Source: Escherichia coli
Lineage (GTDB): Bacteria > Pseudomonadota > Gammaproteobacteria > Enterobacterales > Enterobacteriaceae
Reading direction: 5' to 3' (one strand)
Assembly: GCF_022846255.1 (NCBI RefSeq)
Contig: NZ_AP025682.1
Length of the DNA stretch: 64,000 nucleotides
The translations under genes were made by a program, and so were the position numbers. Below, piece after piece: positions 33,651-34,200 of the stretch (positions within the stretch are counted from its first letter, which is position 1; each line of letters opens with the position of its first letter). Below the pieces are notes generated by a model that was not told where the DNA came from, did not search any database, and saw only the letters and a list, made by a program, of their open reading frames with translations.

Positions 33651-33684
33651 ATTTCAATATTAGCATTATTCTTTAAATGAATGT

Positions 33685-33718
33685 TTGCCCCCATGTTTTT
33701 ACATGGGGGCAATTTTTA
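33685..33718 (+). terminator. Intrinsic terminator downstream of the ratB-like gene
   Basis: Perfect 9-bp stem gcccccatg / catgggggc with a T-rich loop, followed by aattttt. Confidence 0.65.
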
Positions 33719-33776
33719 ATACCGATAAACCTGTGCTAAAGTTTTGCCTTATTAACCGAAATCGCAGGAGACTTCG

Positions 33777-34001
33777 ATGGAAGTGCAGTGTCCGGTTTGT
33801 CATCAATCTATTGAATTACATGGCGGTAGTGCGCATTGTGAATATTGCCAACAGGATATCGCGTTTCAGGCGCTTTGCCCGGATTGTCATCAACCCTTAC
33901 AGGTGCTAAAAGCGTGCGGTGCGGTGGACTATTTTTGCCAGAACGGTCACGGATTAATTTCTAAAAAGCGTATTGAATTTTTGCCGTTTAATATCATTTG
34001 A
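33777..34001 (+). CDS. yfgJ: Small zinc-ribbon protein YfgJ (four CxxC motifs)
   Basis: 74 aa: MEVQCPVCHQ...CEYCQ...CPDCHQ...CQNGH; in K-12 this is the only gene between der and xseA. Confidence 0.85.
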   Translation: MEVQCPVCHQSIELHGGSAHCEYCQQDIAFQALCPDCHQPLQVLKACGAVDYFCQNGHGLISKKRIEFLPFNII

Positions 34002-34200
34002 ATATATTGTTTTATCATTTATATATTCCATGTGAATGGTAAAACAATTTCTTACTGACCGCACTATTAATATAATTGAGTATGAACAATCATGTATAAT
34101 GTTTAAGAATATATTTAGCCTTTTCTGTCGTGCTATCCCGGATGTTCTGGAATAGAATGGCAGAATTCATTTTTGACTTTATTGTCAATAGGGAAAAGGT

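What the first reader, a model, noticed from the sequence alone, without database searches (positions are those of the whole stretch)
33651..34200. Core gene yfgJ is sandwiched between the two island modules
yfgJ, the only K-12 gene in this interval, has accessory modules on both sides and keeps its own flanking terminator (33685-33718) and a downstream AT-rich region. This implies either two separate acquisitions on each side of yfgJ, or that yfgJ belongs to the island and K-12 is a deletion remnant. No integrase, tRNA or direct-repeat boundary is visible to decide.
Basis: inference. Interest (0 to 1): 0.5.

Follow-up and report, generated by a model that had tools for sequence, protein, structure and literature searches.

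The report
Two adhesin operons flank divergent yfgJ
The small gene yfgJ sits between two related but independently inherited adhesin operons in a recombination-prone stretch of the E. coli chromosome, and this copy of yfgJ is far too diverged from the K-12 copy to count as a conserved core gene; this is an unusual variant of a known virulence locus, not a new kind of element.

Summary
yfgJ (33777-34001) lies between two accessory modules, with a strong hairpin terminator upstream and an AT-rich stretch downstream.

Both modules are paralogous sinH-sinI-ratA inverse-autotransporter operons. The right one (34201-45615) is the known CS54/ila cluster. It occupies the yfgJ-xseA slot in Salmonella, E. 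albertii, E. whittamii, Citrobacter, Pseudocitrobacter and Superficieibacter. The left one (28035-33650) is a deeply diverged copy seen only in E. coli, bordered by an IS4-family relic.

Among 5,426 complete E. coli genomes:
- 3,669 have neither module.
- 1,749 have only the right module.
- 8 have only the left module (E2348/69-like).
- None has both, although draft assemblies do.

The modules are therefore gained and lost independently. yfgJ is a fixed anchor between der and xseA in every genus examined, with variable cargo on either side.

This yfgJ allele is not K-12-like. It is 66% identical in nucleotides and saturated at synonymous sites, and it belongs to the class linked to the left module. 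The block 27321-34213 is a single haplotype, virtually identical in all both-module genomes examined. It is joined to a mosaic right module at the 5' end of sinH.

No integrase, tRNA or direct repeats are present. Homologous recombination is the likely vehicle. This is a new variant of a known locus, of modest interest.

The parts
25848..27320 (+). der (GTPase Der), the left core flank. Identity to B2-phylogroup E. coli is 97-100% up to the stop codon.
   Evidence: pS 0.03 vs strain 536
27341..27815 (.). IS4-family element relic at the left edge of the variable region. It starts about 20 nt after the der stop. The 57-aa ORF at 27582-27755 that some assemblies call lies inside it.
   Evidence: The orthologous stretch in E2348/69 is annotated as a frameshifted, incomplete IS4-family transposase. 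It is about 73% identical to sequence on 483 plasmids; in the one plasmid of that set inspected it lies next to an ISEc13-like IS4 transposase gene.
27816..28034 (+). AT-rich leader (20.5% GC) upstream of the left sinH.
28035..30230 (+). sinH1: intimin-like inverse autotransporter, left module. 71% aa identity to sinH2.
   Evidence: NCBIfam NF033423, 1400 bits against a cut-off of 999; forms a separate clade with 100% bootstrap
30242..31222 (+). sinI1: SinI-family autotransporter-associated protein, left module. 36% aa identity to sinI2.
   Evidence: NF040711, 286 bits against a cut-off of 165; close relatives occur only in E. coli, and the next best match is 49% or lower
31296..33650 (+). rat1: short RatA-like adhesin with two BIg21 + InvE_AD repeat units. 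The likely true start is 31332, giving 772 aa.
   Evidence: colinear with the E2348/69 orthologue but only 47% aa identical
33685..33720 (+). Intrinsic terminator (12-bp stem plus T-run) ending the left operon and insulating yfgJ from it.
   Evidence: the stem is kept with compensatory changes in E2348/69 and DCE7
33777..34001 (+). yfgJ, a double zinc-ribbon protein, 74 aa. It belongs to the allele class linked to the left module. Loss of one nucleotide at the ancestral stop adds 3 codons.
34002..34200 (+). AT-rich leader (29% GC) of the right sinH. It is part of the left-module/yfgJ haplotype block and only 54-62% identical to the leader in genomes that carry the right module alone.
34201..36375 (+). 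sinH2: SinH/IatB of the known CS54/ila cluster. Recombination breakpoints lie at about 34214-34227.
   Evidence: NF033423, 1474 bits
36425..37423 (+). sinI2: SinI-family partner protein, right module.
   Evidence: present in 1,733 of 5,426 complete genomes
37534..45615 (+). ratA2: 2,693-aa RatA-like repeat adhesin. It is mosaic relative to other E. coli alleles.
45669..47036 (-). xseA, the right flank. Its 3' half is still part of the diverged haplotype, with a C-terminus of the '[13 protein letters not shown]' type.
27321..34213 (.). One haplotype block: IS relic, left module, terminator, yfgJ and leader. It is virtually identical in all both-module assemblies examined (100% from about 31500 to 34100; a few 500-nt bins fall to 96.6-98.8%).

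Best explanation
The stretch from the der stop codon to the middle of xseA is a hypervariable chromosomal locus maintained by recombination. It has two independent cargo slots, one on each side of yfgJ, which is a positional anchor in every genus examined.

In this genome both slots hold three-gene operons of the same kind. Each encodes SinH (an inverse, type Ve autotransporter), SinI (a partner protein lacking the barrel) and a RatA-like Ig-repeat adhesin.

- The right operon is the E. coli counterpart of the Salmonella CS54 island, also called the ila cluster or IatB. It is the long-standing occupant of the yfgJ-xseA slot.
- The left operon is a deeply diverged paralogue seen only in E. coli. 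It entered the der-yfgJ slot separately and has an IS4-family relic on its der side.

The operons spread, are replaced and are lost as allelic cassettes. The vehicle is homologous recombination in der, in conserved parts of sinH and in xseA/guaB, not an integrase.

yfgJ here is not backbone DNA. It is the allele class that travels with the left module. The block 27321-34213 is a single haplotype that has been joined, at the first few codons of sinH2, to right modules of different origins.

Shown: the gene identities, the four configurations, the outgroup gene order, the haplotype block, the breakpoints and the divergence levels. Inferred: the recombination mechanism, the order of events and the adhesin function of the left module.
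For: Paralogy of the modules. NCBIfam names both sets SinH, SinI and RatA-like. Amino-acid identities between the copies are 71%, 36% and 35%.

Independence of the modules. sinH occurs in 1,757 of 5,426 complete E. coli genomes. Eight carry the left type, 1,749 the right type, none both, and 3,669 have none. The both-module arrangement is seen in all 10 places shown among the 24 public contigs read that encode the identical 74-aa YfgJ.

Outgroups. The order der-yfgJ-sinH-sinI-ratA is seen in E. whittamii, Escherichia sp. E1V33, E. albertii, Salmonella, three Pseudocitrobacter, several Citrobacter and Superficieibacter; where the locus extends far enough, xseA follows. None has the left module.

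yfgJ as anchor with other cargo. Citrobacter sp. OP27 has an oxidoreductase in the left slot. K. michiganensis has Wzy/Stealth or TonB/TolA-like genes on the left and emfourin plus an M4 protease on the right.

The haplotype block. Both-module loci are virtually identical to the window across 27500-34200. They then fall to 64-75% identity in a 536-like right module, with the first cluster of differences at 34214. Against ECCNB12-2 the window is 54-62% identical in the leader and 100% identical from 34227.

Divergence.
- yfgJ pS is 0.72 to saturated against K-12 and 0.55-0.73 against E2348/69.
- The flanking bamB, der and guaB have pS 0.007-0.03 against strain 536, a B2 strain.
- E. coli versus Salmonella der and bamB have pS 0.54-0.63.
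- Identity collapses immediately after the der stop and recovers only in the 5' half of xseA.

No tRNA, direct repeats or integrase. An IS relic lies at the left edge.

Exchange between genera. Pseudocitrobacter vendiensis SinI is 96% and the RatA N-terminus 94% identical to the window. By comparison BamB is 85% and Der 92%.
Against: - No donor or outgroup carrying the left module was found. Its origin, ancient duplication or import, is unresolved.
- The deep node placing SinH1 has weak bootstrap support in a simple neighbour-joining tree.
- Genomes with neither module and genomes with only the left module share the same geometry, with the yfgJ and xseA stop codons overlapping. This could mean that left-only haplotypes are themselves recombinants, so the order of events is uncertain.
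- yfgJ is only 68 alignable codons, so the pS estimates are noisy.
- Recombination is inferred from mosaic identity patterns. No formal recombination test was run.
- E. fergusonii, E. marmotae and E. ruysiae were not examined by name.
Confidence: 0.72

Rival explanations
1. Ancient tandem duplication. A unit of yfgJ-sinH-sinI-ratA duplicated in an Escherichia ancestor and the two copies diverged. The der-proximal yfgJ copy was then removed by an IS4-mediated adjacent deletion. On this view the both-module arrangement is the ancestral form, and single-module or empty loci arose by loss.
For: - Both modules have the same three-gene order and orientation, each with an AT-rich leader.
- An IS4 relic with its transposase end missing abuts der exactly where a first yfgJ copy would have been.
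- This yfgJ is followed by a diverged but homologous sinH leader, so it has long sat upstream of a sinH operon.
- SinH1 branches next to the Escherichia/Pseudocitrobacter SinH clade.
Against: - No relic of yfgJ or xseA was found in 27321-28034 or 33651-33776. All hits have E of about 0.02 or worse in a tiny search space.
- No outgroup among 17 informative loci has two modules.
- SinI1 and Rat1 are only 35-36% identical to their right-hand counterparts. SinI1 is closer (45-49%) to the SinI of Salmonella and Citrobacter than to SinI2.
- The both-module haplotype is rare and virtually invariant, so it looks young rather than ancestral.
Confidence: 0.15
2. One composite island. yfgJ and both modules were acquired together as a single element, and K-12-like genomes are what is left after deletion.
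For: The whole stretch from the der stop to mid-xseA, yfgJ included, is highly diverged from K-12. The block 27321-34213 behaves as one haplotype.
Against: - yfgJ is present at this position in every genome examined where both flanks are in view, including Klebsiella and Citrobacter sp. OP27, which have no sinH operon.
- Each module occurs without the other.
- Genomes sharing the identical left block carry right modules only 64-75% identical to each other.
- K-12's yfgJ and XseA C-terminus are different ancient alleles, not trimmed versions of this one.
- There are no integrase, tRNA or repeat boundaries.
Confidence: 0.04
3. Functional coupling. YfgJ is a cognate factor, such as a regulator or assembly partner, of the neighbouring SinH systems. 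Its hypervariable N-terminal zinc ribbon co-diversifies with them, which is why allele class tracks module content.
For: - In E. coli, three N-terminal allele classes match the three flanking states: none, right module, left module.
- In every sinH-bearing locus where yfgJ is in view it sits directly upstream of sinH.
- The N-terminal half accumulates amino-acid changes (pN 0.16-0.43) while the C-terminal half is under strong constraint (pN 0.02-0.06).
Against: - Physical linkage in a recombination-poor, anciently diverged haplotype explains the association without any functional link.
- dN/dS in the N-terminal half is 0.15-0.34, so there is no sign of positive selection.
- yfgJ is retained in genera and strains that lack sinH.
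- Pseudocitrobacter pairs a K-12-like YfgJ N-terminus with a right module.
Confidence: 0.07

Closest known systems
Salmonella CS54 island (xseA-shdA-ratB-ratA-sinI-sinH, next to yfgJ/yfgK; Kingsley et al. 2003, as cited in PMC4943183; gene order in PMC3591323)
   Same: The right module has the same three genes in the same order and the same slot between yfgJ and xseA. A Salmonella locus fetched here shows der-yfgJ-sinH-sinI-ratA.
   Different: E. coli has no ratB or shdA. This window adds a second, paralogous sinH-sinI-rat operon on the other side of yfgJ, which is not part of CS54.
E. coli ila cluster / IatB (SinH) locus of ExPEC ('GR17 xseA..yfgJ' in PMC12928451; IatB in PMC6714894; SinH prevalence and alleles in PMC9937491)
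   Same: The right module is this locus. It is found in 1,749 of 5,426 complete genomes here, with the deep allele families that the vaccine paper also notes.
   Different: The papers searched here treat it as a single cluster bounded by yfgJ. They mention neither the left paralogue, found in E2348/69-like genomes and in this window, nor the divergence of yfgJ itself.
ZirTSU-type inverse-autotransporter translocator/substrate operons (PMC4943183)
   Same: An inverse autotransporter is followed by barrel-less proteins that share its Ig-like C-terminal domain. The SinI-family profile matches the C-termini of both SinH copies.
   Different: Secretion of SinI or RatA through SinH has not been shown. 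This resemblance is in how it may work, not a tested membership.
Core-gene-flanked hypervariable loci exchanged by homologous recombination, such as the O-antigen region between galF and gnd, and pangenome integration hotspots (from general knowledge)
   Same: - Conserved flanks with deeply diverged alternative cassettes between them.
- Divergence hitch-hiking into the adjacent core genes (here the xseA 3' half and yfgJ).
- No integrase or att sites.
   Different: Here there are two slots separated by a small retained gene, and both can hold paralogues of the same adhesin operon.

Membership tests
CS54 / ila (sinH-sinI-ratA) adhesin cluster | SinH intimin-like inverse autotransporter | tested here: met
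   NCBIfam equivalog NF033423: 1400 bits (left copy) and 1474 bits (right copy), against a cut-off of 999.
CS54 / ila (sinH-sinI-ratA) adhesin cluster | SinI-family partner gene immediately downstream of sinH | tested here: met
   NF040711: 286 and 371 bits, against a cut-off of 165.
CS54 / ila (sinH-sinI-ratA) adhesin cluster | RatA-type BIg21/InvE_AD repeat adhesin as the third gene | tested here: met
   Right copy: 2,693 aa, with about nine copies of the characteristic repeat at 804-861-nt spacing. Left copy: 784 aa with two BIg21 + InvE_AD units. The left copy scores far below the RatA equivalog cut-off (515 against 3870) because it is short.
CS54 / ila (sinH-sinI-ratA) adhesin cluster | Chromosomal position between yfgJ and xseA | tested here: met
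   Met for the right module. Not met for the left module, which lies between der and yfgJ. The left module is therefore a paralogous cluster, not the CS54/ila locus itself.
Integrase-mobilised genomic island | Integrase gene, tRNA/tmRNA or other att target, and flanking direct repeats | tested here: not met
   No tRNA. Apart from the paralogy between the modules and the internal ratA repeats, only short families of 16-36 nt inside coding sequence were found, and none brackets either module. No integrase ORF lies in 27321-45668. Integrase islands do sit at the der 3' end in E2348/69, but they are separate insertions.
Composite transposon / IS-bounded element | IS copies or ends on both sides of the cargo | tested here: not met
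   There is a single degraded IS4-family relic, on the der side only. Nothing IS-like lies in 33651-33776 or 45616-45668.
YfgJ / Zn_ribbon_6 (PF07191) family | Two CxxC...CxxC zinc ribbons; sequence match to the family and to solved YfgJ structures | tested here: met
   Precomputed PF07191 on the identical protein. PDB 2jrp E = 1e-34 and 2jne E = 2e-27. All eight cysteines are present.

The most novel reading that the evidence does not exclude
The der-xseA interval is a long-lived polymorphism, shared across species, of alternative surface-adhesin cassettes. YfgJ's hypervariable N-terminal zinc ribbon is a cognate specificity factor that co-diversifies with the SinH/SinI/RatA operon beside it. 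If so, this genome, with two paralogous operons around one yfgJ, is a natural experiment in cross-talk between the two systems.
Probability: 0.07. Interest if true: 0.55.

Novelty: new variant of a known kind. Interest (0 to 1): 0.3.

Why it matters
SinH is being developed as an ExPEC vaccine antigen and used as a lineage marker (PMC9937491). Three points follow from this locus.

- Some E. coli carry a second SinH only 71% identical to the first, and some carry only that paralogue, for example EPEC E2348/69. This affects antigen coverage and PCR or BLAST typing. A 'sinH-positive' call can mean either locus.
- A gene that is core by name and position can be as diverged within a species as between genera, because it sits inside a hypervariable haplotype. 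Treating yfgJ as a fixed boundary of the 'island' misplaces the real breakpoints. These lie at the der stop codon, at the first codons of sinH2 and in the middle of xseA.
- For island prediction, this is a clear case of virulence cargo that moves without an integrase, tRNA or repeats.

Tried and rejected
- **Donor for the left module.** The genome-contig scan with SinH1 found nothing above 74% identity. The 5.8-billion-protein search with SinI1 found close relatives only in E. coli. No donor was identified.
- **Recent chimera in yfgJ.** I tested whether the window's yfgJ has a left-module-type 5' half and a right-module-type 3' half. It does not. The first 96 nt are 77% identical to E2348/69 and 55-61% to the other alleles. 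The 3' half is about equally distant (76-84%) from all classes, and the last codons (CCG) are still of the left-module class. The real breakpoint is downstream, at 34214-34227.
- **Relic of a second yfgJ or of an xseA 3' end.** I searched the der-sinH1 spacer and the rat1-yfgJ junction, as a tandem duplication would predict. Nothing convincing was found.
- **Homology between the two AT-rich leaders.** The alignment is dominated by base composition and is uninformative.
- **Rfam scan of 26800-34600.** Only chance-level hits.
- **Promoter scan around yfgJ.** Three sites were found against 3.5 expected by chance. None lies between the terminator and the yfgJ start.
- **Six-frame family scan of the IS relic.** It failed because of stop codons. 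The IS assignment rests on the RefSeq annotation of E2348/69 and on plasmid neighbours.
- **First literature search.** It was swamped by unrelated 'Sinh...' words.

Full report
**What is in the window**

On the + strand the order is as follows:
- rlmN, rodZ, ispG, hisS, yfgM, bamB, then der, which ends at 27320
- a 714-bp spacer
- three ORFs at 28035-30230, 30242-31222 and 31296-33650
- a hairpin at 33685-33712
- yfgJ at 33777-34001
- a 199-bp AT-rich stretch
- three ORFs at 34201-36375, 36425-37423 and 37534-45615
- xseA on the minus strand at 45669-47036, then guaB

K-12 has only der, a 69-bp spacer, and yfgJ overlapping xseA by 4 bp.

**The two modules are paralogues**

NCBIfam names both first genes SinH (1400 and 1474 bits, cut-off 999) and both second genes SinI family. 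The third genes are RatA-like.

Pairwise identity between the copies is 71% for SinH, 36% for SinI and 35% for the RatA-like proteins. The left RatA-like protein is a short form with two BIg21 + InvE_AD units. The right one is 2,693 aa, with about nine copies of the characteristic repeat.

The right module is the E. coli version of the Salmonella CS54 island. It is described in ExPEC as the ila cluster, or IatB/SinH (PMC12928451, PMC6714894, PMC4943183, PMC9937491).

**Checking the observation**

- The hairpin is a convincing intrinsic terminator: a 12-bp stem with dG -22.7 kcal/mol and z = -4.9, followed by TTTTTAAT.
- It lies 35 nt after the stop of the left module's last gene and 65 nt before the yfgJ start codon.
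- E2348/69 and DCE7 keep it in the same place with compensatory stem changes. It therefore terminates the left operon.
- It is unrelated to the hairpin between der and yfgJ in K-12 or 536.
- No terminator follows yfgJ.
- The AT-rich stretch (29% GC) is the sinH2 leader. A 20.5% GC leader precedes sinH1.
- There is no tRNA, no Rfam match and no bracketing direct repeat.
RefSeq annotates the orthologous stretch of E2348/69 as a broken IS4-family transposase. Similar sequence lies on 483 plasmids, and in the one plasmid of that set inspected it sits next to an ISEc13-like IS4 transposase gene.

**Population survey**

The window is E. coli. bamB-der is 99-100% identical to B2 strains, but no complete genome matches bases 1-19000 at better than 98.4%.

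| Configuration | Complete genomes (of 5,426) | Examples |
|---|---|---|
| No sinH | 3,669 | K-12 |
| Right module only | 1,749 | 536, ECCNB12-2 |
| Left module only | 8 | four E2348/69 or O127:H6 records, Z1323HEC0423, Z1323HEC0067, A25, DCE7 |
| Both modules | 0 | none |

The left-type copies are about 89% identical to the window's.

The both-module arrangement is nevertheless real. The identical 74-aa YfgJ is indexed in 44 blocks of the public assembly collection. All 10 places shown carry left module, yfgJ and right module in that order. So all four presence/absence combinations exist.

**Outgroups**

A scan of one genome per species with SinH1 returned 17 informative loci. Further loci were fetched by exact YfgJ sequence.

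- The order der-yfgJ-sinH-sinI-ratA is seen in E. whittamii, Escherichia sp. E1V33, E. albertii, Salmonella, three Pseudocitrobacter, several Citrobacter and Superficieibacter. Where the locus extends far enough, xseA follows.
- None has a sinH operon between der and yfgJ.
- Genera or strains without sinH still have yfgJ in place, with other cargo around it. Citrobacter sp. OP27 has an oxidoreductase on the left. K. michiganensis has Wzy/Stealth or TonB/TolA-like genes on the left and emfourin plus an M4 protease on the right. Several Citrobacter have 2-3 kb of extra sequence on the left.

yfgJ is thus a fixed anchor in every genus examined, with a variable slot on each side. SinI1-type proteins have close relatives (96, 85 and 83%) only in E. 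coli, and the next best match is 49% or lower. In a neighbour-joining tree the SinH1 sequences form their own clade with 100% bootstrap support. That clade sits outside the Escherichia/Pseudocitrobacter SinH group, but the deeper node is weakly supported.

**yfgJ is not a conserved island between the modules**

YfgJ proteins in E. coli fall into three classes that differ in the N-terminal zinc ribbon:
- a K-12 class
- a class found with the right module
- a class found with the left module

The window's allele belongs to the third class. It is 78.6% identical in amino acids to E2348/69 and 65-68% to the others. At the nucleotide level it is 66% identical to K-12 and 79% to E2348/69.

Synonymous differences show the scale of the divergence:

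| Comparison | pS |
|---|---|
| yfgJ, window vs K-12 | 0.72 to saturated |
| yfgJ, window vs E2348/69 | 0.55-0.73 |
| bamB, der, guaB, window vs 536 (B2) | 0.007-0.03 |
| der, bamB, E. coli vs Salmonella | 0.54-0.63 |

The C-terminal half is held by purifying selection (pN 0.02-0.06) and the N-terminal half is relaxed (dN/dS 0.15-0.34). Identity to other E. coli collapses right after the der stop codon and recovers only in the 5' half of xseA.

XseA C-termini come in two types. '[13 protein letters not shown]' accompanies the Escherichia/Pseudocitrobacter right module. 'LEDGW..SEVK' is found in K-12, E2348/69, Klebsiella and Citrobacter.

**Haplotype structure and breakpoints**

- All both-module loci are virtually identical to the window from about 27500 to 34200. 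That block comprises the IS relic, left module, terminator, yfgJ and leader.
- Five of the seven loci then drop to 64-75% identity in a 536-like right module. Two are identical to the window throughout.
- After one isolated change at 34134, the differences begin at 34214, thirteen bases into sinH2.
- Against ECCNB12-2 the pattern is reversed: 54-62% identity in the leader and 100% from 34227 onward.
- The window's right module is mosaic relative to ECCNB12-2, at 77-100% per 250 nt.
- The leader is a diverged homologue of the leader in right-only genomes. The first 50 nt or so after the stop codon are 80-84% identical. This yfgJ class has therefore long sat upstream of a sinH.
- At the yfgJ stop the window reads CCG-TTTAAtatcat, whereas E2348/69 has CCGGTTTAG. 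One base has been lost, which extends the ORF by three codons.

**Interpretation**

The independent distribution of the two modules favours two separate histories on the two sides of yfgJ. So do the outgroup order, the unrelated cargo in other genera, and the sharing of one left block with different right modules.

The right module is old in the genus. Published work reports sinH in 98-100% of phylogroups B2, F and G and 67% of D, but not in commensal strains of phylogroups A and B1 (PMC9937491). K-12's empty slot is therefore probably derived. It is not a simple deletion, because its yfgJ and xseA 3' end are different ancient alleles with no scar.

The left module is a later addition seen only in E. 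coli, of unknown source, with an IS relic on one side. No integrase, tRNA or repeats are involved. The mosaic identity patterns point to homologous recombination in der, conserved parts of sinH, and xseA/guaB. Pseudocitrobacter vendiensis has SinI 96% and the RatA N-terminus 94% identical to the window, while BamB is 85% and Der 92%. This shows that the cassette crosses genus boundaries.

**Rivals**

- *Ancient tandem duplication of yfgJ-sinH-sinI-ratA, with IS-mediated loss of the first yfgJ.* This fits the shared architecture and the position of the IS relic. It lacks any relic of a second yfgJ and any two-module outgroup. It also has to explain why SinI1 is closer to Salmonella or Citrobacter SinI than to SinI2.
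- *A single composite island that includes yfgJ.* This is contradicted by genomes carrying only one module and by the presence of yfgJ between der and xseA in every locus examined where both flanks are in view.
- *Functional coupling between YfgJ and the operons.* This is not excluded, but linkage explains the pattern more simply.

**Limits**

- Recombination was inferred, not formally tested.
- The yfgJ alignment is short.
- The tree is a simple neighbour-joining tree.
- E. fergusonii was not examined.
- The direction of events for the left module cannot be fixed without a donor or a dated phylogeny.

**Verdict**

This is a real and tidy case of a two-slot hypervariable adhesin locus. The right-hand part is already known. 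Three things appear to be undescribed in the literature searched here: the left-hand paralogue, its co-occurrence with the right module, and the hitch-hiking divergence of yfgJ. They do not amount to a new kind of system.

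Noticed in passing
window 27341-27815 (ORF 27582-27755): A degraded IS4-family element sits about 20 nt after the der stop codon. Several assemblies call a 57-aa gene inside it, which is probably spurious.
   Followed up: partly
L004 6748-13876 (E2348/69); L034 about 9440-9510 (E. coli E69): The 3' end of der is also an integration site. E2348/69 has a tyrosine integrase plus a Hailong anti-phage system inserted between der and the left module. In E69, Der is not found in the 9.5 kb upstream of yfgJ, and a duplicated der 3' end lies just before yfgJ.
   Followed up: no
L028 (Pseudocitrobacter vendiensis) 9941-22751: The right-module proteins are closer to the window (SinI 96%, RatA N-terminus 94%, XseA 95%) than the core proteins are (BamB 85%, Der 92%). 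This suggests recent exchange of the cassette and the xseA 3' end between genera.
   Followed up: partly
L007 10425-12601, L011, L012; L010 10225-12656: In several both-module assemblies that carry the 536-like right module, sinH2 is split into 156-aa and 560-aa ORFs, or not called at all. The left module is intact in those assemblies. This may be decay of a redundant copy.
   Followed up: no
window 34230-34275: A 21-nt inverted repeat, 90% complementary with a 4-nt loop, lies inside the signal-peptide coding part of sinH2. It lies just downstream of the recombination breakpoint at about 34214-34227.
   Followed up: no
window 45669-45760 and xseA 3' ends of L001-L005, L016-L034: The XseA C-terminal ~30 residues come in two sharply different types, and the xseA stop codon varies (TGA, TAG or TAA). 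In genomes without the right module, the yfgJ and xseA stop codons overlap. ExcludonFinder (PMC12288877) lists this xseA-yfgJ pair among its identified excludons.
   Followed up: partly
window 33992-34001: Loss of a single base at the ancestral stop codon extends this YfgJ from 71 to 74 aa (…LPFNII). The extension is identical in all both-module assemblies.
   Followed up: yes
L063, L064 (Klebsiella michiganensis): Two strains with the identical YfgJ protein carry different genes in the der-yfgJ slot: Wzy/Stealth in one and TonB_C/TolA-like in the other. Both have an emfourin plus M4 protease pair in the yfgJ-xseA slot. The two-slot variability is therefore not specific to Escherichia.
   Followed up: no
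window 26000-26500 (inside der): A 500-bp patch of der is only 96.6% identical between the window and five otherwise 99-100% identical both-module loci. This looks like a small recombination patch in the core flank.
   Followed up: no
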